Source: a plasmid
Reading direction: 5' to 3' (one strand)
DNA: 6,677 nucleotides
Sequence record: NZ_CP071298.1
Within the stretch, counting starts at the first letter, position 1. Every line of letters begins with the position of its first letter. The notes beneath the pieces are model-generated. The model did not search any database. It had not been told where the DNA came from and worked only from the letters and a program-made list of their open reading frames with translations. The position numbers were made by a program, and so were the translations under genes. Positions 1 through 6,677 of the stretch are shown here, one piece after another.

Positions 1-397
1 TTTTGAAAGCCATGCGTCTGACATCTATCTGATTGTTGAAGAAGGATTCTACAAGCGTACCTTGGATATTCACCGAACACTAGGGTTGCTCTTGCACACT
101 CAAGTCTCGATTCAGCAATTGCTTAAGCTGCCAGCGGAATGCTTTCATCCTAAACCAAAAGTAAACAGTGTCTTAATAAAACTTACCCGCCATACCACAG
201 ATGTTCCAGATAAATATTGGAAGCTATATACGTACTTTGTTTCAAAATGGGTCAATCGAGAATATCGTCAACTGTTTACTAAAAATCAGTTTCATCAAGC
301 AATGAAACACGCCAAAGTAAACAATTTAAGTACCGTTACTTATGAGCAAGTATTGTCTATTTTTAATAGTTATCTATTATTTAACGGGAGGAAATAA
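1..397 (+). CDS. ermB: Erm(B) rRNA methyltransferase, 3' part (continuation of 6337..6677); stop TAA at 395-397
   Basis: Frame 2 translation [131 protein letters not shown] is the Erm(B) C-terminus. Combined with 6337..6677 the length is 738 nt, i.e. 245 aa plus stop, which is the canonical Erm(B) length. Confidence 0.95.
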
Positions 398-401
398 TTC
401 T

Positions 402-533
402 ATGAGTCGCTTTTGTAAATTTGGAAAGTTACACGTTACTAAAGGGAATGTAGATAAATTATTAGGTATACTACTGACAGCTTCCAAGGAGCTAAAGAGG
501 TCCCTAGCGCCTACGGGGAATTTGTATCGATAA
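402..533 (+). CDS. Small conserved ORF downstream of erm(B) (Tn917-type ORF3, 43 aa) MSRFCKFGKLHVTKGNVDKLLGILLTASKELKRSLAPTGNLYR
   Basis: ATG at 402 with GGGAGG (386-391) 10 nt upstream; the RBS overlaps the ermB stop. Its 3' end lies inside the internal direct repeat. The longer call in the ORF track (342..533) would overlap ermB. Confidence 0.5.
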   Translation: MSRFCKFGKLHVTKGNVDKLLGILLTASKELKRSLAPTGNLYR

Positions 534-569
534 GGAATAGATTTAAAAATTTCGCTGTTATTTTGTACA
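499..569 (+). repeat. Internal direct repeat, a copy of the Tn917-like left-end sequence (DR-A)
   Basis: ggtccctagcgcctacggggaatttgtatcgataaggaatagatttaaaaatttcgctgttattttgtaca aligns with 5715-5785 with about 5 differences or indels over roughly 71 bp. Confidence 0.85.
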
Positions 570-584
570 ATAAGGATAAATTTG

Positions 585-618
585 AATGGTACCATAAACG
601 ACCGTTTATGGTACCATT
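585..618. repeat. Perfect 34-bp palindrome aatggtaccataaacg-ac-cgtttatggtaccatt; candidate resolvase crossover subsite and/or bidirectional terminator
   Basis: Arms of 16 bp around a 2-nt centre, followed by a T-rich tract (ttcattttcc). The motif TTATGGTAC recurs at 712-722 just upstream of the resolvase start. Confidence 0.55.
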
Positions 619-751: not shown

Positions 752-838
752 ATGATTTTTGGCTATGCTCGAGTGAGTACGGATGATCAAAATCTTAGTT
801 TACAAATTGATGCACTTACTCATTATGGAAATGTTTAG
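752..838 (+). pseudogene. tnpR: Truncated serine resolvase (tnpR/beta-recombinase family), only 28 codons: MIFGYARVSTDDQNLSLQIDALTHYGNV*
   Basis: Strong RBS AAGGAGG at 738-744 and ATG at 752. The N-terminus YARVSTDDQ carries the serine-recombinase catalytic Ser motif. There is a premature stop after 28 aa, so the catalytic domain is incomplete. Confidence 0.8.
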
Positions 839-843
839 AACTT

Positions 844-874
844 AGTAGTCGTCCAAAAACGACTACTTTTTTTG
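844..874 (+). terminator. Rho-independent terminator (agtagtcgt-ccaaaa-acgactact + T7)
   Basis: Perfect 9-bp stem, 6-nt loop, then a run of 7 T. Confidence 0.75.
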
Positions 875-876
875 TT

Positions 877-896
877 GAATCGTCCGAGGACGATTC
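877..896. repeat. Inverted repeat gaatcgtc-cgag-gacgattc
   Basis: 8-bp perfect stem. The arms AATCGTC/GACGATT recur with swapped order at 1020-1046. Confidence 0.4.
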
Positions 897-1014
897 GATG
901 CTTTTGACTTGTAAGAACAGGATTGAATGAAGCCATACTGTTCGCATATTTTTAGTGGATGAACAAACAAAATACGAGAGATTTTTTGTTCGTTTATCCA
1001 TGGTTTTAGAAAAA

Positions 1015-1055
1015 AGAGGGACGATTTCGGAAGAAGAAAATCGTCTCTTTTTTTC
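1015..1055 (+). terminator. Stem-loop agagggacgattt...aaatcgtctct followed by T7; terminator-like
   Basis: Stem of about 11 bp with a 2-nt bulge, a 10-nt loop, and a T-run at 1048-1055. Confidence 0.45.
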
Positions 1056-1088
1056 TTCTTTTTGTATGACAAAAAGAAAGATCTTTTG

Positions 1089-1112
1089 CCCATTTTATAA
1101 AAATAAAATGGG
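1089..1112. repeat. Hairpin cccatttta-taaaaa-taaaatggg
   Basis: 9-bp perfect stem. Confidence 0.4.
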
Positions 1113-1191
1113 TAGGTGGCGTTTGCGTAAAGCAAATCGACACAATCCAAAGGGAATAAAAGGGGAAAGTGAAACTTCCCCCTTTTCAAGC

Positions 1192-1233
1192 CACATTGTA
1201 ATACAAGAACGAAGTGCTTTGTATTACAATGTG
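1192..1233. repeat. Long inverted repeat cacattgtaatacaa-(12 nt)-ttgtattacaatgtg
   Basis: 15-bp perfect stem with a 12-nt loop (gaacgaagtgct), in a non-coding region. Confidence 0.6.
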
Positions 1234-1512
1234 ATAGCTTGCAGTATTTGTGGTATTATATTCTCTATTTTGTTAGGGGGATTGCAACCGCATAGGGCGC
1301 AATCCTTATTACAAAATCAATGACAAAGGGCGATTGAGGAATGAGCGCTGAGGCATTTTATTTTTAAAAAAAACTATTTATAAGTTCGAAATATGTATCA
1401 CAACTTTAATACGTGCTATCCAACTTTAAGAGAAGGACATTGATTCTTAGAACTATTCTCTTTTTGGTTATTGCTGAAAGCAATTTCTGATACCTATTTT
1501 TTGAGCAAATTA

Positions 1513-2149: not shown

Positions 2150-2232
2150 GTGGGCAAAAAACTGTGTATACGTGGGCAAAAAACTGTGTATACGTGGGCA
2201 AAAAACTGTGTATACGTGGGCAAAAAACTGTA
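2150..2232 (+). repeat. Origin iterons: 22-bp direct repeat GTGGGCAAAAAACTGTGTATAC, three full copies plus one partial
   Basis: Perfect copies at 2150-2171, 2172-2193 and 2194-2215, and a 17-bp partial at 2216-2232. They lie directly upstream of the rep promoter, the classic arrangement of Rep_3 theta replicons of lactic acid bacteria. Confidence 0.88.
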
Positions 2233-2333: not shown

Positions 2334-3494
2334 ATGCCTATTATACCAGAAAATCAAAACAAACAAAAGCAGGTGCTAACCTTGAATGACCTTGAAAAAC
2401 GCAAAGTAGTGGAGCATAACAGCCTCATTACCTCAATAGCCAAAATGGATAAAACGCCCTTGAAAATGTTTGAATTGGCGGTGTCTTGCATTGATACGGA
2501 AAAACAACTGGAAGATAATACGGTTTATCTTTCTAAAAGAGACCTTTTCGCTTTCTTTAAGGTGTCTGATAATGACAAACACAGTCGTTTTAAAGAAGCG
2601 GTTGAGAAAATGCAGAAACAAGCCTTTTTCAAAATCAAAGAAAAAAAAGATAAAGGTTTTGAGTTTGAAAATATTGTGCCGATTCCTTACGTCAAGTGGA
2701 CAGATTATAACGATGAAGTGTTAATCCGTTTCAGTCCTGAAATTATCCCCTACTTAGTCAATCTCAAAAAAAATTTCACGCAACATGCCTTATCTGACCT
2801 TGCTGAACTCAATAGCAAGTACAGTATTATCTTATATCGTTGGTTATCCATGAATTATAACCAATATGAGCATTACAGTTTCAAGGGCGGACGGAGAGAA
2901 GAACAAGTGGAAAGCTACCGCAATCCAACTATTTCTATAAAAGAGTTACGTACCATGACGGATACCGTAAAGTTATATAAAGAATTTAGAGATTTAGATA
3001 AAAGAGTTTTAAAAGAATCGTTGGAAGAAATCAACACTCACACCTCTTTTAACGTGTCTTATGACAAAGTGAAAAAAGGGCGAAGCATTGATTCTATTGT
3101 CTTTCACATCACGAAGAAACACCGAGCAGACGATAACAGCTACAAACTAGAGGACAAAACGTATCAAGAAGCGAAAGCCCAAAAAGAAGAATCTGAAAAG
3201 GACTTAGTCTTTAAAGCAATGGAAAGCAAATATACTAAATTGCTTATTGAAAATTTCCTTTTATCGCCCTATGAAATGACTGATACAGCACTTATGGCAG
3301 GTTTGCAAAAAAATGTTTATCCAAAGTATGACGAACTCAAAACATTACGAGGACTTGAGGGGGTCAAGAAGCACCTCTCATACGTTCGTGAGAAGCAAGA
3401 ACCTTATTCAAAAGGGAACATTGCAAAGTATCTTAAAAAGGCAATTGAACAGTACCTACCAACGGTTAAAAGGCAGGACATAGAAAATGAATGA
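2334..3494 (+). CDS. repB: Theta-type plasmid replication initiator, Rep_3 family (RepB-like), 386 aa
   Basis: RBS AAGGAG 8 nt upstream of the ATG. Sits immediately downstream of the iterons. Size and N-terminal winged-helix-like region are typical of iteron-binding Rep_3 initiators. The charged C-terminal half is typical too. Confidence 0.85.
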   Translation: MPIIPENQNKQKQVLTLNDLEKRKVVEHNSLITSIAKMDKTPLKMFELAVSCIDTEKQLEDNTVYLSKRDLFAFFKVSDNDKHSRFKEAVEKMQKQAFFKIKEKKDKGFEFENIVPIPYVKWTDYNDEVLIRFSPEIIPYLVNLKKNFTQHALSDLAELNSKYSIILYRWLSMNYNQYEHYSFKGGRREEQVESYRNPTISIKELRTMTDTVKLYKEFRDLDKRVLKESLEEINTHTSFNVSYDKVKKGRSIDSIVFHITKKHRADDNSYKLEDKTYQEAKAQKEESEKDLVFKAMESKYTKLLIENFLLSPYEMTDTALMAGLQKNVYPKYDELKTLRGLEGVKKHLSYVREKQEPYSKGNIAKYLKKAIEQYLPTVKRQDIENE

Positions 3495-4074
3495 AAACTA
3501 CAAAACCATAAAGGAACTTGCGGATGAGTTAGGTGTGAGTAAATCATATATTGATAAAATAATACGCATACTGAAATTGCATACTAAATTAGATAAAGTA
3601 GGTAATAAGTATGTGATTTCTAAAACACAAGAGAAGTCTATAAAAAATAGGCTTCTTTCGTCTGAATCAACAACTAAATCACACACTAAATCGACAACTA
3701 AAACGCATACTGAAGTTGATTTTGAAGTCGATTTTTTGAAAGAAGAAATCTTATATCTTAGAAAGAGTCACGATAAACAATTGACCAACAAAGATAAGCA
3801 GATAGAAACTTTAAGTAATCTTTTAGATCAACAACAACGACTAGCCTTACAAGATAAAAAGTTGTTAGAAGAATACAAAGCAGAAAATGACAGCTTAAAA
3901 GCTCTTAAAATGCCTACACAGGAAACAGAATTCAAACACTTAGACAATCAATATAAAGATGAAGTGAACGCTCTTAAAGAGAAGTTGGAAAATTTGCAGG
4001 AACAACTCAAAGTTCAAAAAAGGATAGAAGAACAAGAAAAACCAAGAAAGTGGTGGGGACTATGGCGAAAATAG
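3487..4074 (+). CDS. Replication-associated HTH/coiled-coil protein (OrfX-like), 195 aa
   Basis: Start overlaps the rep stop by 8 nt. The N-terminus TIKELADELGVSKSYIDKIIRIL is HTH-like. Residues from about 90 onward are heptad-rich coiled coil (LKEEILYLRKSHDKQL...LKEKLENLQEQLKVQKRIEEQ). This is the usual position of orfX in lactococcal-type theta replicons. Confidence 0.7.
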   Translation: MNENYKTIKELADELGVSKSYIDKIIRILKLHTKLDKVGNKYVISKTQEKSIKNRLLSSESTTKSHTKSTTKTHTEVDFEVDFLKEEILYLRKSHDKQLTNKDKQIETLSNLLDQQQRLALQDKKLLEEYKAENDSLKALKMPTQETEFKHLDNQYKDEVNALKEKLENLQEQLKVQKRIEEQEKPRKWWGLWRK

Positions 4075-5303
4075 ATGATTCAGTTAAAAAGAAAGTTCCT
4101 GAATTGCGATTTGCGGGGTTTGCTGACGATTGGGAAGAGCGTAATCTTGGTGAGTGGTCCGATGTTCGTGATGGAACACACGCTTCACCGAAGTATATTA
4201 AGCAAGGTCACCCAATGGTTACATCTAAAAATCTAACCGATTCTGGTTTAGACATGTCCGATGTTTCTTATTTAACTGATGAAGATTTTAATGAAATTAA
4301 CCAGCGATCAAAGGTTGATATCGGAGACATATTATTCGGAATGATTGGAACAATCGGAAAACCTGTAATCGTTGATAGAGATGACTTTGCAATCAAAAAT
4401 GTTGCATTGATTAAAGAGAAAACATCGCCAGAAATTATCAATACCTGGCTAATTCAATATTTAAAGTCGCCCTCATTTGAACGCTTTATCCAAAAGGAAA
4501 ATGCCGGTGGGACCCAAAAGTTTATTGCTTTGGGTTTGATTCGTGATATGAAGCTGATGACACCTAGTGTTCAGGAACAGGCCCGCATTGGTGAACTGTT
4601 AAATCATCTGGACAACCTTATCGTTGCTAACCAGCATAAGTTAGATTTATTGAAAGAGCAGAAAAAAGGATACTTACAAAAAATGTTCCCTAAAAATGGG
4701 GCTAAAGTTCCTGAATTGAGATTTGCGGGGTTTGCTGACGATTGGGAAGAGCGTAAGTTAGGTCAATATACTAAGTTAATTACTAAAGGAACGACGCCTA
4801 AGGATAAAACAGGTATTGGTGATGTTAATTTTGTTAAAGTTGAAAATATAACCAATGGTAAAATTTATCCTATTAATAAAATAAAACAAAATGAACATGA
4901 CAATTATTTAAAAAGATCTCGATTAGAAGAAAAAGATATTCTATTTTCAATAGCAGGTACATTAGGTAGAACAGCAATTGTAAATAAATCAATATTACCA
5001 GCTAATACTAATCAAGCTCTAGCGATAATAAGAGGGTATGATTTTGATACCAATTTTCTTATTACATCGTTATCTGGAAACGTCGTAAAGGAATATATTC
5101 GACGTAATCCAACAGTTGGTGCGCAACCTAATCTTTCTCTTGAACAAGTAGGTAATTTATTAGTTAATACACCAAATGCTGAAGAACAACAAAAAATCGG
5201 TTCATTCTTTAAACAATTAGATGACACTATCGCTCTTCATCAACGTAAGTTAGATTTATTGAAAGAACAGAAAAAAGGCTTTTTACAAAAGATATTTGTT
5301 TAG
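4062..5303 (+). CDS. hsdS: Type I restriction-modification specificity subunit HsdS (two target-recognition domains), orphan
   Basis: Conserved blocks are duplicated around two variable domains: KKVPELRFAGFADDWEER (twice) and HxxKLDLLKEQKKGxLQKxF (twice). This is the circularly symmetric HsdS architecture. ATG at 4062, or the alternative in-frame GTG at 4050, overlaps the end of orfX. No hsdM or hsdR is present in the window. Confidence 0.9.
   Translation: MAKIDDSVKKKVPELRFAGFADDWEERNLGEWSDVRDGTHASPKYIKQGHPMVTSKNLTDSGLDMSDVSYLTDEDFNEINQRSKVDIGDILFGMIGTIGKPVIVDRDDFAIKNVALIKEKTSPEIINTWLIQYLKSPSFERFIQKENAGGTQKFIALGLIRDMKLMTPSVQEQARIGELLNHLDNLIVANQHKLDLLKEQKKGYLQKMFPKNGAKVPELRFAGFADDWEERKLGQYTKLITKGTTPKDKTGIGDVNFVKVENITNGKIYPINKIKQNEHDNYLKRSRLEEKDILFSIAGTLGRTAIVNKSILPANTNQALAIIRGYDFDTNFLITSLSGNVVKEYIRRNPTVGAQPNLSLEQVGNLLVNTPNAEEQQKIGSFFKQLDDTIALHQRKLDLLKEQKKGFLQKIFV
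4092..4144 (+). repeat. hsdS intragenic direct repeat 1a (53 bp, N-terminal conserved region)
   Basis: aaagttcctgaattgcgatttgcggggtttgctgacgattgggaagagcgtaa is identical to 4704-4756 except for one base. Confidence 0.9.
4637..4670 (+). repeat. hsdS intragenic direct repeat 2a (34 bp, central conserved region)
   Basis: taagttagatttattgaaagagcagaaaaaagg matches 5246-5279 with one mismatch. Confidence 0.9.
4704..4756 (+). repeat. hsdS intragenic direct repeat 1b (central conserved region)
   Basis: Partner of 4092-4144, with 52 of 53 bases identical. Confidence 0.9.
5246..5279 (+). repeat. hsdS intragenic direct repeat 2b (C-terminal conserved region)
   Basis: Partner of 4637-4670. Confidence 0.9.
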
Positions 5304-5341
5304 GGTCTATAATTAGATAATAACCCCTAAGAAATTAAGCA

Positions 5342-5388
5342 AAAACAGCCCTTATACTTATAAGATATAATTATAGGGGCTGTTTTTT
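5342..5388 (+). terminator. Rho-independent terminator after hsdS (aaaacagcccttata...tataggggctgtttttt)
   Basis: Stem of about 15 bp with one mismatch, a 15-nt loop, and a T6 run. A/T runs on both sides make it potentially bidirectional. Confidence 0.7.
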
Positions 5389-5405
5389 ACAAATTTATAA
5401 AAAAT

Positions 5406-5434
5406 AAAGCATTTATATAAATGCTTTTCTTTTT
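5406..5434. terminator. Perfect 22-bp palindrome aaagcatttat|ataaatgcttt followed by tcttttt; bidirectional terminator candidate
   Basis: Perfect hairpin with a T-rich 3' flank on the plus strand. It lies about 85 bp downstream of the minus-strand small ORF (5647..5519). Confidence 0.5.
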
Positions 5435-5518
5435 GAAATATAACAGAATTTGTAGTTTTAAGATAACTTATCTATCTCAGCTATCTGTATTTTTTCTTCA
5501 ATTTAAACTAAAATAGAC

Positions 5519-5647
5519 TTATTGGAAAACTTTGCAACAGAACCACAAATCTATCCAAAAGGATTGACTATCCTGTCGCTCATTTCCTCTATTTTCCCAT
5601 CTTTTAATAAAATCTTTGGCTTGTTTTTTTTGTTCTCGAACGTCCAT
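5519..5647 (-). pseudogene. Short ORF (42 aa) MDVREQKKQAKDFIKRWENRGNERQDSQSFWIDLWFCCKVFQ; likely N-terminal remnant of an MmeI-family (type IIG/type ISP-like) restriction-modification enzyme
   Basis: The motif A.DFIKRWE......SQ.F.IDL..VF resembles the first 35 residues or so of MmeI-family enzymes, which I recall as AIEFSKRWEDASDENSQAKPFLIDFFEVFG. The ORF stops where the nuclease domain would begin. It has a GGTGA RBS and its own promoter and terminator. Confidence 0.35.
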
Positions 5648-5675
5648 TATGTCACCATTTTTCTTTTAATACTTA

Positions 5676-5704
5676 ATTATAGCATAGGCTTTCTTCCTTG
5701 ATAA
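5676..5704 (-). promoter_or_regulatory. Minus-strand promoter (extended -10 TGcTATAAT at 5684..5676; -35-like TTATCA at 5704..5699, 17-bp spacer) driving the 42-aa ORF
   Basis: Read on the reverse complement: ttatcaaggaagaaagcctaTGcTATAAT. It sits 9 bp outside the Tn917-like terminal repeat. Confidence 0.4.
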
Positions 5705-5712
5705 CCTCTATA

Positions 5713-5785
5713 GGGGTCCCGAGCGCCTACGAGAAATTTGTATCGATAAGAAATAGATTTAAAAATTTCGCTGTTATTTTGTACA
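5713..5785 (+). repeat. Tn917/Tn3-family-like terminal inverted repeat (GGGGTCCCGAGCGCCTACGAGAAATTTGTATCGATAAG) plus adjacent sequence; direct-repeat partner of 499-569 (DR-B)
   Basis: Starts with GGGG at 5713 as Tn3-family IRs do. From memory the sequence matches the Tn917 left terminus. Near-identical in direct orientation to 499-569. Confidence 0.7.
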
Positions 5786-6128: not shown

Positions 6129-6212
6129 ATGTTGGTATTCCAAATGCGTAATGTAGATAAAACATCTACTGTTTTGAAACAGACTAAAAACAGTGATTAC
6201 GCAGATAAATAA
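6129..6212 (+). CDS. ermBL: erm(B) leader peptide (27 aa) MLVFQMRNVDKTSTVLKQTKNSDYADK
   Basis: Short ORF with a strong RBS AAGGAGGG at 6114-6121. The peptide sequence is the known ErmBL stalling/attenuation leader of erm(B). Confidence 0.88.
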   Translation: MLVFQMRNVDKTSTVLKQTKNSDYADK

Positions 6213-6336
6213 ATACGTTAGATTAATTCCTACCAGTGACTAATCTTATGACTTTTTAAACAGATAACTAAAATTACAAACAAATCGTTTAACTTCTGTA
6301 TTTATTTATAGATGTAATCACTTCAGGAGTGATTAA
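6190..6336 (+). promoter_or_regulatory. erm(B) translational attenuator (leader-ermB intergenic inverted repeats sequestering the ermB SD)
   Basis: GTGATTAC at 6194-6201 is complementary to GTAATCAC at 6313-6320. TAATCACT at 6314-6321 is complementary to AGTGATTA at 6326-6333, which flanks the ermB SD AGGAG (6325-6329). This is the classical alternative-pairing arrangement of erm attenuators. Confidence 0.6.
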
Positions 6337-6677
6337 ATGAACAAAAATATAAAATATTCTCAAAACTTTTTAACGAGTGAAAAAGTACTCAACCAAATAA
6401 TAAAACAATTGAATTTAAAAGAAACCGATACCGTTTACGAAATTGGAACAGGTAAAGGGCATTTAACGACGAAACTGGCTAAAATAAGTAAACAGGTAAC
6501 GTCTATTGAATTAGACAGTCATCTATTCAACTTATCGTCAGAAAAATTAAAACTGAATACTCGTGTCACTTTAATTCACCAAGATATTCTACAGTTTCAA
6601 TTCCCTAACAAACAGAGGTATAAAATTGTTGGGAATATTCCTTACCATTTAAGCACACAAATTATTAAAAAAGTGGT
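6337..6677 (+). CDS. ermB: 23S rRNA (adenine-N6)-dimethyltransferase Erm(B), 5' part (codons 1-113 plus 2 nt); continues at position 1 across the circular junction
   Basis: ATG at 6337 preceded by AGGAG at 6325-6329 with a 7-nt spacer. Translation [114 protein letters not shown] matches the Erm(B) N-terminus as I recall it. The frame runs off the window end and resumes in-frame at position 1 (gt+t = Val). Confidence 0.95.

What the first reader, a model, noticed from the sequence alone, without database searches (positions are those of the whole stretch)
4050..5303. Orphan type I HsdS translationally coupled to the replication operon, on an erm(B) plasmid
A full-length two-TRD HsdS is encoded with its start overlapping the orfX stop, and there is no hsdM or hsdR anywhere on the replicon. 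Plasmid-borne solitary hsdS genes co-transcribed with repB-orfX are an established way for lactococci to swap the specificity of a chromosomal type I (IC family) R-M system. In this plasmid that specificity cassette is physically linked to macrolide resistance. Erythromycin selection would therefore co-select a change in the host restriction/methylation target, and the reverse also holds. The entire defence function depends on a compatible host HsdM/HsdR.
Basis: partly seen in the sequence, partly recalled or inferred. Interest (0 to 1): 0.7.

Follow-up and report, generated by a model that had tools for sequence, protein, structure and literature searches.

The report
Orphan HsdS cassette on erm(B) plasmid
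A small erythromycin-resistance plasmid from a human-gut Lactococcus carries an intact but partner-less DNA-recognition subunit of a type I restriction system as the last gene of its replication operon, which is a well-documented lactococcal arrangement and so an ordinary new example rather than a new kind of system.

Summary
The window is the complete 6,677-bp circular plasmid of Lactococcus sp. LG1267 (L. garvieae group, human faeces). It carries one operon: iterons, promoter, repB, orfX, hsdS, terminator. The genes overlap by 8 and 13 nt. It also carries an intact inducible erm(B). The HsdS is full length, with two recognition domains (TRDs) and two long helices. Its likely start is ATG 4062, not GTG 4050. 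No hsdM or hsdR lies on this plasmid or on the strain's two other plasmids. The chromosome could not be reached.

The gene is a mosaic. TRD1 is 100% identical to that of a sibling plasmid. TRD2 is 99% identical to that of the HsdS in pAH82's complete hsdRMS operon. Contigs encoding an identical RepB carry at least six different hsdS alleles. One, from L. formosensis, shares the same erm(B) backbone (98.7-99.9%) but has unrelated TRDs. The specificity cassette therefore turns over faster than the resistance backbone.

The repB-orfX-hsdS orphan arrangement is long established in L. lactis and L. garvieae. About 43% of such orphans are methylation-silent. This is a new member of a known kind. Activity in this host is untested. 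Interest is low to moderate.

The parts
2150..2231 (.). Replication origin iterons: 3.7 perfect copies of a 22-bp unit (GTGGGCAAAAAACTGTGTATAC), preceded by an AT-rich stretch (2062-2094)
   Evidence: Tandem Repeats Finder, 100% matches. The layout matches the lactococcal theta-replicon origin described in PMC3138775.
2229..2256 (+). repB promoter-like site (TGTACA, 16 nt, TATAAT, with a TG extended -10), overlapping the last partial iteron
   Evidence: Consensus scan, 10 of 12 matches. It is the only good + strand promoter match upstream of the three genes. Function is inferred.
2334..3494 (+). repB, theta-replication initiator (386 aa)
   Evidence: Pfam Rep3_N 8e-35, Rep3_C 4e-20, L_lactis_RepB_C 1.5e-58. 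The identical protein is encoded on at least 23 other contigs.
3487..4074 (+). orfX, replication-associated protein (195 aa, N-terminal helix-turn-helix). Overlaps repB by 8 nt.
   Evidence: ORF list. Weak HTH_ParB and DUF536 hits. The overlap ATGAATGA is read directly.
4062..5303 (+). hsdS, orphan type I specificity subunit (413 aa; an alternative in-frame GTG at 4050 gives 417 aa). Overlaps the orfX stop by 13 nt.
   Evidence: Pfam Methylase_S twice. PADLOC Specificity_I full length, 1.1e-109. AlphaFold2 pLDDT 80 with two globular domains and helices at residues 170-208 and 373-411. The Foldseek top 10 are type I S subunits. Shine-Dalgarno pairing -11.9 kcal/mol.
4146..4580 (+). TRD1 (aa 29-173), 37.9% G+C
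   Evidence: 100% aa identity to TRD1 of the L096 sibling HsdS. Close (clearly homologous across its length) to the C-terminal TRD of a chromosomal HsdS in L011 (alignment). G+C.
4581..4757 (+). Central conserved region (aa 174-232): long helix plus linker
   Evidence: From KLDLLKEQKK to the end of the linker it is identical to pAH82 HsdS apart from one residue (A/E). 98% identical to L096. Helix 170-208 in the model.
4758..5189 (+). TRD2 (aa 233-376), 29.1% G+C
   Evidence: One substitution relative to TRD2 of the HsdS in pAH82's complete hsdR-hsdM-hsdS operon. 98% DNA identity to L. garvieae plasmid NZ_CP065690.1.
4092..4144 (+). Internal direct repeat, copy 1 (N-terminal conserved segment). 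Copy 2 is at 4704-4756, 98% identical.
   Evidence: Self-blastn. Sibling alignments break at 4144 and about 4759, so the repeats mark the recombination boundaries.
4637..4681 (+). Internal direct repeat, copy 1 (helix segment). Copy 2 is at 5246-5290, 91% identical.
   Evidence: Self-blastn.
5303..5331 (+). Conserved 29-nt hairpin motif GGGTCTATAATTAGATAATAACCCCTAAG, abutting the hsdS stop. It is the right-hand boundary of the swapped cassette.
   Evidence: An exact copy follows hsdS alleles in 12 fetched loci, and in L091 it follows an extra DUF5067 gene.
5341..5393 (+). Intrinsic terminator of the repB-orfX-hsdS unit (16-bp stem plus U-run)
   Evidence: RNA fold -31.4 kcal/mol, z -5.8. Inverted repeat 5341-5387. 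No terminator-like site between 2256 and 5303 on the + strand.
5391..5707 (.). Non-coding segment that normally follows lactococcal hsdS genes
   Evidence: 100% identical to the DNA downstream of a complete hsdRMS operon on L. raffinolactis pLraf_19_5_1.
5708..5785 (+). Left copy of the 78-bp direct repeat bracketing erm(B) (right copy 492-569, 92% identical). Left edge of the erm(B) module.
   Evidence: Self-blastn. erm(B)-plasmid matches start at about 5691-5709.
6129..6212 (+). erm(B) leader peptide (27 aa) of the translational attenuator
   Evidence: Translation MLVFQMRNVDKTSTVLKQTKNSDYADK. Annotated as the attenuation leader in matching records.
6337..6677 (+). erm(B), 5' part (continues at position 1 of the circular plasmid)
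   Evidence: Translation across the junction gives an intact 245-aa ErmB. 99.9% DNA identity to erm(B) regions of staphylococcal and enterococcal plasmids.
1..397 (+). erm(B), 3' part
   Evidence: Pfam RrnaAD 7e-28. Translation.
752..838 (+). Remnant of a serine-recombinase (resolvase) gene: the first 28 codons, then a stop. Right junction of the erm(B) module with the lactococcal backbone.
   Evidence: Translation MIFGYARVSTDDQNLSLQIDALTHYGNV*. erm(B)-side matches run to about 833, and backbone matches start at 754 or 830.

Best explanation
The ORF is an intact, solitary specificity (S) subunit of the lactococcal EcoR124-like type I restriction-modification family. It is the last gene of the plasmid's replication operon (repB-orfX-hsdS).

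Proposed mechanism. The repB promoter next to the iterons transcribes all three genes up to the strong terminator at 5341-5393 (inferred from the anatomy and from the literature on sister plasmids). Ribosomes finishing orfX meet the hsdS Shine-Dalgarno and ATG 4062, which lie inside the last 13 nt of orfX, so HsdS output follows the replication genes (inferred). HsdS has no catalytic activity. Its two TRDs each read one half of a bipartite target. Its two long conserved helices dock two HsdM, and then HsdR, supplied in trans from a chromosome or another plasmid. The cell thereby gains an extra m6A methylation and restriction specificity (established for this family in L. lactis; not tested for this allele).

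The repeated conserved segments flanking each TRD serve as homologous-recombination substrates. Through them TRDs and whole hsdS cassettes are exchanged. This allele is a TRD1(L096-type) + TRD2(pAH82-type) mosaic. The same erm(B) backbone in L. formosensis carries a different cassette.

Because erm(B) is on the same 6.7-kb replicon, macrolide selection maintains whichever specificity cassette is present. That only has a phenotype in hosts that supply a compatible HsdM/HsdR.
For: Identity.
- Methylase_S twice; full-length Specificity_I, 1e-109.
- AlphaFold2 model with two TRDs and two 39-residue helices (170-208 and 373-411), pLDDT 80.
- The Foldseek top 10 hits are full-length type I S subunits with probability 1.0.

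Operon.
- Iterons and promoter.
- 8-nt and 13-nt gene overlaps.
- Strong Shine-Dalgarno at ATG 4062.
- No internal terminator and a strong terminal one.
- The same junction sequence is conserved in 14 other loci.

Orphan status. tblastn with HsdM and HsdR finds nothing in the window, in both other LG1267 plasmids, or in the sibling loci.

Compatibility.
- The central conserved region is virtually identical to that of the HsdS in pAH82's complete hsdRMS operon, and TRD2 differs from it by one residue.
- The DNA after hsdS equals that after a complete hsdRMS operon.
- pAH82-type HsdM and HsdR belong to clusters (90% identity or more) that span Lactococcus, Enterococcus, Streptococcus and Carnobacterium.
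- These partners are EcoR124-like.

Shuffling.
- Internal repeats.
- An identical RepB sits next to at least six different hsdS alleles.
- The L. formosensis sibling has the same erm(B) backbone with unrelated TRDs.

Literature. Trans-complementation by plasmid HsdS and repB-orfX-hsdS as one transcription unit are described in PMC3138775, PMC12418389, PMC3387028 and PMC4420470.
Against: - No HsdM or HsdR was found anywhere that could be examined in strain LG1267.
- No L. garvieae, L. petauri or L. formosensis reference genome was among the 80 best hsdS loci of the species-representative scan. The exact pAH82 HsdM occurs only on contigs under 200 kb. In this species group the partner may therefore be an accessory gene that is often absent.
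- 43% of intact lactococcal orphan S genes gave no methylation signal (PMC12418389).
- In L. garvieae IPLA 31405 the plasmid type I system gave no protection against the L. lactis phages tested (PMC4420470).
- Transcription and coupling were not measured, and the recognition sequence is unknown.
Confidence: 0.8

Rival explanations
1. Silent cargo in this host. The gene is intact, but LG1267 has no compatible HsdM/HsdR, so it contributes neither methylation nor restriction there. It rides along only because it is hard-wired into the replication operon.
For: - No HsdM or HsdR on any of the three LG1267 plasmids.
- L. garvieae-group reference genomes are absent from the 80 best hsdS loci.
- The exact pAH82 HsdM is found only on plasmid-sized contigs.
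- 43% of lactococcal orphan S genes are silent (PMC12418389).
- In L. garvieae IPLA 31405 the compatible hsdR and hsdM were on a second plasmid (pLG42), not guaranteed by the chromosome.
Against: - The reading frame is fully intact. TRD1 is 100% and TRD2 99% identical to copies elsewhere, which indicates recent purifying maintenance.
- That chromosome was reported to carry type I components: two hsdR and one hsdM (PMC4420470).
- The LG1267 chromosome was not examined.
Confidence: 0.4
2. Recombination reservoir. The main evolutionary role of the cassette is as a donor and acceptor of TRDs for other hsdS genes in the cell, via the repeated conserved segments, rather than as a working subunit in its own right.
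For: - Repeats of 53 nt (98%) and 45 nt (91%) flank the TRDs.
- The gene has a mosaic origin.
- A TRD1 homologue occupies the TRD2 position in a chromosomal HsdS.
- An identical replicon carries many alleles, including truncated 207-209-aa ones.
- Domain shuffling between lactococcal hsdS genes is cited in PMC3138775 and PMC12418389.
Against: This does not exclude the gene also being functional. No second hsdS was found on the other LG1267 plasmids to recombine with.
Confidence: 0.25
3. Methylation-only role. HsdS pairs with HsdM alone (M2S) and acts as an epigenetic modifier, or as self-protection that lets the plasmid enter restricting kin, without contributing to restriction.
For: It is general knowledge of type I systems that M2S1 is an active methyltransferase. 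No HsdR was detected near the gene.
Against: In the complete lactococcal loci found here, hsdR, hsdM and hsdS lie together. The literature reports restriction phenotypes for plasmid HsdS.
Confidence: 0.1
4. Assembly chimera or engineered vector. On this view the erm(B)-hsdS linkage is not natural.
For: No PLSDB record spans either erm(B)/backbone junction. erm(B) cassettes are common in laboratory vectors.
Against: - An independent L. formosensis assembly has the same hsdS-downstream-to-erm(B) junction, contiguous at 98.7-99.9%.
- A Lactococcus sp. bn62 plasmid spans window 754-1365, the backbone side of the other junction.
- The source is a complete genome of a human faecal isolate that carries other resistance plasmids.
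Confidence: 0.02

Closest known systems
Plasmid-borne orphan HsdS of Lactococcus lactis in repB-orfX-hsdS units (pIL2614, pCIS3, pIL7 and pIL2; surveyed in 43 strains in PMC12418389)
   Same: The same gene order on a theta replicon with 22-bp iterons, overlapping reading frames, no hsdM or hsdR in cis, and the same conserved N-terminal, central and C-terminal HsdS segments.
   Different: The host belongs to the L. garvieae group and comes from the human gut rather than from dairy L. lactis. The replicon also carries erm(B). This TRD1+TRD2 pairing has no identical copy elsewhere in the collection searched; the closest full-length relatives are about 91% identical.
pAH82 HsdS and the pAH82/pAH33 domain-shuffling system (O'Sullivan et al. 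2000, as cited)
   Same: TRD2, the central region and the C-terminal region are 99-100% identical at the protein level. The repeated flanks that allow TRD exchange are the same.
   Different: pAH82 encodes hsdR and hsdM between orfX and hsdS; the window has neither. TRD1 is unrelated.
L. garvieae plasmids pGL3, pGL4 and pLG9 (repB-repX-hsdS)
   Same: The same module in the same species group. The authors likewise proposed cooperation with HsdM/HsdR encoded elsewhere.
   Different: The passages read here describe no antibiotic-resistance gene on those plasmids. Their HsdS alleles differ.
L. formosensis contig JAKTAW010000015.1 (GCA_022427225.1; locus L091)
   Same: Identical RepB. The same backbone at 98.9%. 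The same post-hsdS segment and the same erm(B) module at 98.7-99.9%.
   Different: Unrelated TRDs (411-aa HsdS). An extra DUF5067 lipoprotein gene after hsdS. A 57-nt deletion in the erm(B) attenuator. The contig is larger (13.9 kb) with further cargo.
EcoR124I (prototype type IC system)
   Same: The lactococcal HsdR and HsdM that partner this HsdS family are clear EcoR124I/II relatives (HsdR 1e-70; HsdM 5e-101, against 3e-11 for EcoKI). The S-subunit fold is the same.
   Different: There is no detectable sequence similarity between this HsdS and the EcoR124I HsdS. There is no tandem tetra-amino-acid repeat in the central region. EcoR124I is a complete three-gene system.

Membership tests
Type I R-M specificity subunit (HsdS, Pfam Methylase_S) | Two target-recognition domains of the Methylase_S type in one polypeptide | tested here: met
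   Two Methylase_S stretches, E 3.4e-31. Full-length match to PADLOC Specificity_I, positions 2-419 of 419, E 1.1e-109.
Type I R-M specificity subunit (HsdS, Pfam Methylase_S) | Each TRD is followed by a long conserved helix; the two helices form the coiled-coil spacer | tested here: met
   The AlphaFold2 model (pLDDT 80) has helices at 170-208 and 373-411 after each globular domain. The Foldseek top 10 are S subunits aligned over 404-428 columns, probability 1.0.
Type I R-M specificity subunit (HsdS, Pfam Methylase_S) | Directs HsdM/HsdR to a bipartite DNA target | not testable with these tools
   Needs methylome or restriction assays. The recognition sequence is unknown.
Lactococcal plasmid orphan-hsdS cassette (repB-orfX-hsdS) | hsdS lies immediately downstream of repB and orfX on a theta replicon with 22-bp iterons, on the same strand, with overlapping frames | tested here: met
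   The same junction sequence is present in 14 related loci.
Lactococcal plasmid orphan-hsdS cassette (repB-orfX-hsdS) | No hsdM or hsdR on the replicon | tested here: met
   tblastn with pAH82 and chromosomal HsdM/HsdR gave no hit at E 1e-3 on the whole circular sequence.
Lactococcal plasmid orphan-hsdS cassette (repB-orfX-hsdS) | Conserved (HsdM-docking) regions shared with the HsdS of complete lactococcal hsdRMS operons | tested here: met
   The central region is virtually identical, and the C-terminal region nearly identical, to pAH82 HsdS. C-terminal region 89% identical and central region 78% identical to the HsdS of the L. raffinolactis hsdRMS operon.
Lactococcal plasmid orphan-hsdS cassette (repB-orfX-hsdS) | Co-transcription with repB-orfX | not testable with these tools
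   The anatomy is consistent: one promoter, no internal terminator, one strong terminal terminator. No transcript data.
Lactococcal plasmid orphan-hsdS cassette (repB-orfX-hsdS) | Confers a new R-M specificity with HsdM/HsdR supplied in trans by the host | not testable with these tools
   The LG1267 chromosome is not in any searchable collection. The strain's other two plasmids lack the genes.
Type IC family (EcoR124I, EcoDXXI, EcoprrI) | HsdR and HsdM closely related in sequence to those of EcoR124I | tested here: inconclusive
   Met for the presumed partners from pAH82 (HsdR hits only EcoR124I/II, 1e-70; HsdM 5e-101). Those genes are not in the window, and the actual partner in LG1267 is unknown.
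Type IC family (EcoR124I, EcoDXXI, EcoprrI) | HsdS conserved regions similar to those of type IC HsdS, including the tandem tetra-amino-acid repeat in the central region | tested here: not met
   phmmer finds no EcoR124I HsdS even at E up to 10. The central region (…HKLDLLKEQKKGYLQKMFPKNGAKVPELRF…) contains no tandem 4-aa repeat, by direct reading. The fold match to the EcoR124I S subunit is generic: rank 10, E 1.7e-12.
Type IC family (EcoR124I, EcoDXXI, EcoprrI) | Genetic complementation between subunits of family members | not testable with these tools
   This is an experimental criterion.

The most novel reading that the evidence does not exclude
A small erm(B) plasmid lineage circulates in the L. 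garvieae group (LG1267, L. formosensis). It uses its replication-operon hsdS slot as a hot-swappable cassette. The cognate HsdM and HsdR belong to protein clusters (90% identity or more) that span Lactococcus, Enterococcus, Streptococcus and Carnobacterium. Macrolide selection in gut or animal settings could therefore reprogram the restriction and methylation barriers, and so the horizontal-transfer networks, of several lactic-acid-bacterial genera. On this reading the cassette turns over so that the plasmid can match, or fence off, particular host populations.
Probability: 0.12. Interest if true: 0.5.

Novelty: new member of a known kind. Interest (0 to 1): 0.25.

Why it matters
The arrangement itself teaches nothing new. 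Orphan plasmid HsdS genes in the repB-orfX-hsdS unit have been known in lactococci since the late 1990s and were surveyed at scale in 2025.

The modest added value is twofold. First, this is a clean natural example in which a clinically relevant resistance gene and a restriction-specificity cassette share one 6.7-kb replicon, in a human-gut isolate that also carries optrA. Second, the comparison with the L. formosensis sibling shows that the specificity cassette has been exchanged while the erm(B) backbone stayed 98.7-99.9% identical.

If the HsdS is active in its hosts, antibiotic selection would incidentally fix a particular methylation and restriction pattern, and so influence which phages and plasmids those cells accept. 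That is testable with one methylome experiment.

Tried and rejected
1. The exact-sequence look-up of the 413-aa HsdS returned nothing, although the protein is in the collection. I used homology search instead.

2. I tried to reach the host genome. Accession guesses without the NZ_ prefix failed. NZ_CP071298, presumably this plasmid, is not in PLSDB. Only the two other LG1267 plasmids could be read. Looking up the exact pAH82 HsdM gave only plasmid-sized contigs from other samples. The presence of a host HsdM/HsdR therefore stays open.

3. The single genome-contig scan returned no L. garvieae-group reference genome among the best 80 loci. This is weak negative evidence only.

4. I tried to predict the recognition motif from the 2025 lactococcal methylome paper, but no supplementary tables are held.

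5. I tested type IC membership through HsdS sequence. There was no EcoR124I HsdS hit even at E 10. I did not file the protein as a demonstrated type IC member.

6. I considered whether the 29-nt hairpin after the hsdS stop is an integron-like attachment site of a cassette array. It occurs once per locus, directly after hsdS. In L091 only an 11-nt partial copy lies upstream of the inserted DUF5067 gene. Homologous recombination through the conserved flanks explains the data without invoking a site-specific system.

7. I considered a laboratory-vector origin. I rejected it because of the independent L. formosensis sibling and the strain's provenance.

8. The small ORFs at 5519-5647(-), 955-1323(+) and 863-1189(-) have no Pfam hits. 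I did not treat them as genes.

9. A literature search for erm plus hsdS linkage found no relevant precedent.
Full report
WHAT THE WINDOW IS
The 6,677 bases are a complete circular plasmid. erm(B) starts at 6337, runs off the right end and continues at position 1 to 397, giving an intact 245-aa ErmB. Its 27-aa leader peptide lies at 6129-6212. The HsdS protein is identical to WP_206921872.1/QSR05173.1 of Lactococcus sp. LG1267, recorded on a 6,677-bp contig. LG1267 is a human faecal isolate from Hangzhou. It belongs to the L. garvieae group and also carries the 71.9-kb pLG1267-optrA and a 10.1-kb plasmid. The plasmid itself is not in PLSDB: no record covers 80% or more of it.

CHECKING THE OBSERVATION
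An ORF runs from 4050 to 5303 on the + strand.
- It matches Pfam Methylase_S twice (E 3.4e-31).
- It matches a PADLOC type I specificity model over its whole length (positions 2-419 of 419, E 1.1e-109).
- An AlphaFold2 model (mean pLDDT 80.3) shows two globular domains, each followed by a long helix of 39 residues (170-208 and 373-411).
- Its ten best Foldseek matches in the PDB are all full-length type I S subunits: PacII, M. jannaschii, EcoKI, M. genitalium, T. tengcongensis and EcoR124I.

The orfX stop codon is TAG 4072-4074, so the hsdS start overlaps it. Relatives have ATG at that position and a second ATG at the position of 4062. In the window, ATG 4062 has a strong Shine-Dalgarno pairing (-11.9 kcal/mol), whereas GTG 4050 has almost none (-2.5). 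NCBI annotates the 413-aa form. I therefore take 4062-5303 as the gene, with a 13-nt overlap. The A-to-G change at 4050 is synonymous in orfX.

tblastn with lactococcal HsdM and HsdR finds nothing on the plasmid.

ANATOMY OF THE OPERON
In order along the + strand:
- an AT-rich stretch, then 3.7 perfect 22-bp iterons (2150-2231);
- a promoter-like site with an extended -10 that overlaps the last partial iteron (2229-2256);
- repB (2334-3494), with the Rep3_N, Rep3_C and L_lactis_RepB_C domains;
- orfX (3487-4074), overlapping repB by 8 nt;
- hsdS, overlapping orfX by 13 nt.

No terminator-like site lies between the promoter and the hsdS stop. A strong hairpin followed by a U-run comes directly after hsdS at 5341-5393 (-31.4 kcal/mol, z -5.8). 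[quoted passage not shown] Co-transcription and translational coupling here are inferences from this anatomy.

THE hsdS GENE IS A MOSAIC
Each half of the protein begins with KVPELRFAGFADDWEER and ends with KLDLLKEQKKG(Y/F)LQK. At the DNA level these segments are direct repeats: 4092-4144 equals 4704-4756 (98%), and 4637-4681 equals 5246-5290 (91%).

TRD1 has 37.9% G+C and TRD2 has 29.1%.
- TRD1 with the central region is 100% and 98% identical to those of an HsdS on a sibling plasmid (L096), which has a different TRD2.
- TRD2 with the C-terminal region differs by one or two residues from the HsdS of pAH82, where hsdS follows hsdR and hsdM.
- A close relative of TRD1 occupies the C-terminal TRD position of a chromosomal HsdS in a complete hsdR-hsdM-hsdS locus (L011).
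- The same TRD1+TRD2 pairing exists at about 91% identity in L. lactis, Leuconostoc citreum and E. faecalis, for example in pIBB417_PrSa_4, which has the same junction sequence with orfX and the same 13-nt overlap as annotated.

CASSETTE TURNOVER ON ONE REPLICON
The identical RepB protein is encoded on at least 23 contigs. In the nine loci that extend past orfX, repB is followed by a 195-aa OrfX and then an hsdS. Those hsdS genes differ: 402, 408, 411 and 426 aa, or truncated forms of 207-209 aa. DNA identity to the window is 98-99% up to position 4144, which is the end of the N-terminal conserved segment. It then collapses and resumes in the conserved C-terminal and downstream region.

The most telling sibling is an L. 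formosensis contig (L091).
- Window 1022-4144 matches it at 98.9%.
- Window 5302-6232 matches at 98.7%.
- Window 6290-6677 plus 1-762, i.e. erm(B), matches at 99.7-99.9%.
- The TRDs are unrelated, and an extra DUF5067 gene follows its hsdS.

The erm(B)-hsdS linkage is therefore not unique to this plasmid, and the specificity cassette has been replaced within one erm(B) backbone. The right-hand breakpoint falls exactly at the hsdS stop. There a 29-nt hairpin motif, conserved in 13 of the fetched loci, begins.

THE PARTNER QUESTION
The conserved HsdM-docking regions match those of HsdS proteins that sit next to pAH82-type HsdM and HsdR. The 530 bp after the conserved C-terminus are 98% identical to the DNA after a complete hsdRMS operon on an L. 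raffinolactis plasmid.

pAH82-type HsdM and HsdR belong to clusters (90% identity or more) with thousands of members from Lactococcus, Enterococcus, Streptococcus and Carnobacterium. In the species-representative scan they appear at 97-100% identity both on plasmid-like contigs and on a Lactococcus chromosome.

They are EcoR124-like. The only PDB relatives of HsdR are EcoR124I/II (about 1e-70). HsdM matches EcoR124II M at 5e-101, against 3e-11 for EcoKI M.

None of this is encoded on the window, on the other two LG1267 plasmids, or on the sibling loci. I could not read the LG1267 chromosome. Three indirect signs suggest the partner is accessory in this species group:
- no L. garvieae-group reference genome is among the 80 best hsdS loci;
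- the exact pAH82 HsdM occurs only on contigs under 200 kb;
- in L. garvieae IPLA 31405 the compatible hsdR-hsdM lay on a second plasmid.

A survey of 43 dairy lactococci found 47% of S genes orphan, 81% of those plasmid-borne, and 43% of the reservoir methylation-silent (PMC12418389). I put the chance that this HsdS is active in LG1267 at roughly one half.

MOST LIKELY MECHANISM
1. One transcript from the repB promoter covers repB, orfX and hsdS (inferred).
2. hsdS translation starts at ATG 4062, inside the end of orfX (inferred).
3. HsdS docks two HsdM, and then HsdR, supplied in trans, and adds a bipartite m6A and restriction specificity. This is established for the family in L. lactis and shown by experiment in PMC12418389. 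It is untested for this allele.
4. The repeated flanks allow TRD and cassette exchange by homologous recombination. The mosaic and the sibling comparisons show the outcome directly.
5. erm(B) on the same replicon means macrolide selection maintains the cassette. This follows logically, but a phenotype depends on step 3.

COMPARISON WITH KNOWN SYSTEMS
This is a member of the lactococcal repB-orfX-hsdS orphan-S class. All sequence-level defining features were met. The functional ones cannot be tested here.

I do not file the HsdS itself as a demonstrated type IC member. It has no detectable sequence similarity to the EcoR124I HsdS, and it lacks the tandem tetra-amino-acid repeat of type IC central regions. 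It most likely works with type IC-like partners.

THE erm(B) MODULE
The module spans about 5708 through the window end to about 833. It is 99.7-99.9% identical to erm(B) regions of staphylococcal and enterococcal plasmids. It is bracketed by a 78-bp direct repeat (5708-5785 and 492-569). It ends in a 28-codon remnant of a resolvase gene (752-838), and the lactococcal backbone resumes within that remnant (matches start at 754 or 830).

VERDICT
The arrangement is already well documented, so this is a new member of a known kind. The added points of interest are the erm(B) linkage, which recurs in L. formosensis, and the clear evidence of cassette swapping on one resistance backbone. Interest 0.25.

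Noticed in passing
L020-L027, L074, L085 (Streptomyces, Nonomuraea, Actinoplanes, Amycolatopsis and Dactylosporangium NPDC assemblies); L024 and L062 (Proteus sp. FME41); L038 and L041 (Pseudomonadota and Alphaproteobacteria MAGs): Short contigs carrying a lactococcal repB-orfX-hsdS plasmid appear in genome assemblies of unrelated phyla. In L062 and L038 the lactococcal hsdM (with hsdR in L062) lies upstream of hsdS instead of orfX. RepB is about 80% identical to the window's, and the HsdS matches look alike in most of them. This is most likely laboratory or reagent contamination of those assemblies with Lactococcus plasmid DNA.
   Followed up: no
window 6233-6289, compared with L091 6223-6224: The L. 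formosensis sibling lacks 57 nt of the erm(B) attenuator between the leader peptide and the erm(B) ribosome-binding site. The window keeps the full regulatory region. Such deletions usually make erm(B) constitutive, so the two sibling plasmids may differ in inducibility.
   Followed up: partly
window 492-569 and 5708-5785: 78-bp direct repeats (92% identical) bracket erm(B). They could mediate excision or loss of the resistance gene by homologous recombination, which would leave a plain repB-orfX-hsdS plasmid.
   Followed up: partly
window 752-838: A serine-recombinase (resolvase) gene is cut off after 28 codons (MIFGYARVSTDDQNLSLQIDALTHYGNV*). The matches from erm(B)-type plasmids and from the lactococcal backbone overlap at about 754-833, so the module was probably joined at or near a resolvase gene or res site.
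   Followed up: partly
window 585-618: A 34-nt near-perfect palindrome (GAATGGTACCATAAACG/CGTTTATGGTACCATT) sits just after the right-hand direct repeat. The scan scored it as terminator-like. Its function is unknown.
   Followed up: no
window 5303-5331; L091 4500-4510 and 5294-5322: A 29-nt hairpin motif abuts the hsdS stop codon. An exact copy is present in 13 fetched loci; in those checked it directly follows the hsdS stop, and the alleles are not all the same. In L091 the full motif lies after an inserted DUF5067 gene, and an 11-nt partial copy (GGGTCTATAAT) lies 225 nt downstream of hsdS. This suggests the motif marks a recurrent recombination or insertion point.
   Followed up: partly
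L011 10625-11221, compared with window 4146-4580: A close homologue of the window's N-terminal TRD occupies the C-terminal TRD position of a chromosomal HsdS. TRDs therefore move between the two positions as well as between genes, as expected from the duplicated flanks.
   Followed up: partly
window 5391-5710 (including the minus-strand 42-aa ORF at 5519-5647): This segment is 100% identical to the DNA downstream of a complete hsdRMS operon on L. raffinolactis pLraf_19_5_1. Its first 155 bp recur in many Lactococcus plasmids. The small ORF has no Pfam hit. It may be a gene remnant, or a conserved non-coding element that travels with hsdS.
   Followed up: partly
L093 7699-8328 and L095 2171-2794: Sibling plasmids with the identical RepB carry single-TRD hsdS genes of 207-209 aa. 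PMC12418389 shows that such half-subunits can dimerise and specify palindromic targets, so they need not be dead genes.
   Followed up: no
window 4581-4650 (aa 174-196): The first half of the central helix (VQEQARIGELLNHLDNLIVANQHK) departs from the usual lactococcal consensus (EEQQKIGSFFKQLDDTIALHQRK) but has the same length. It travels with TRD1, since it is shared with L096. Whether it affects pairing with the C-terminal helix or HsdM docking is unknown.
   Followed up: no
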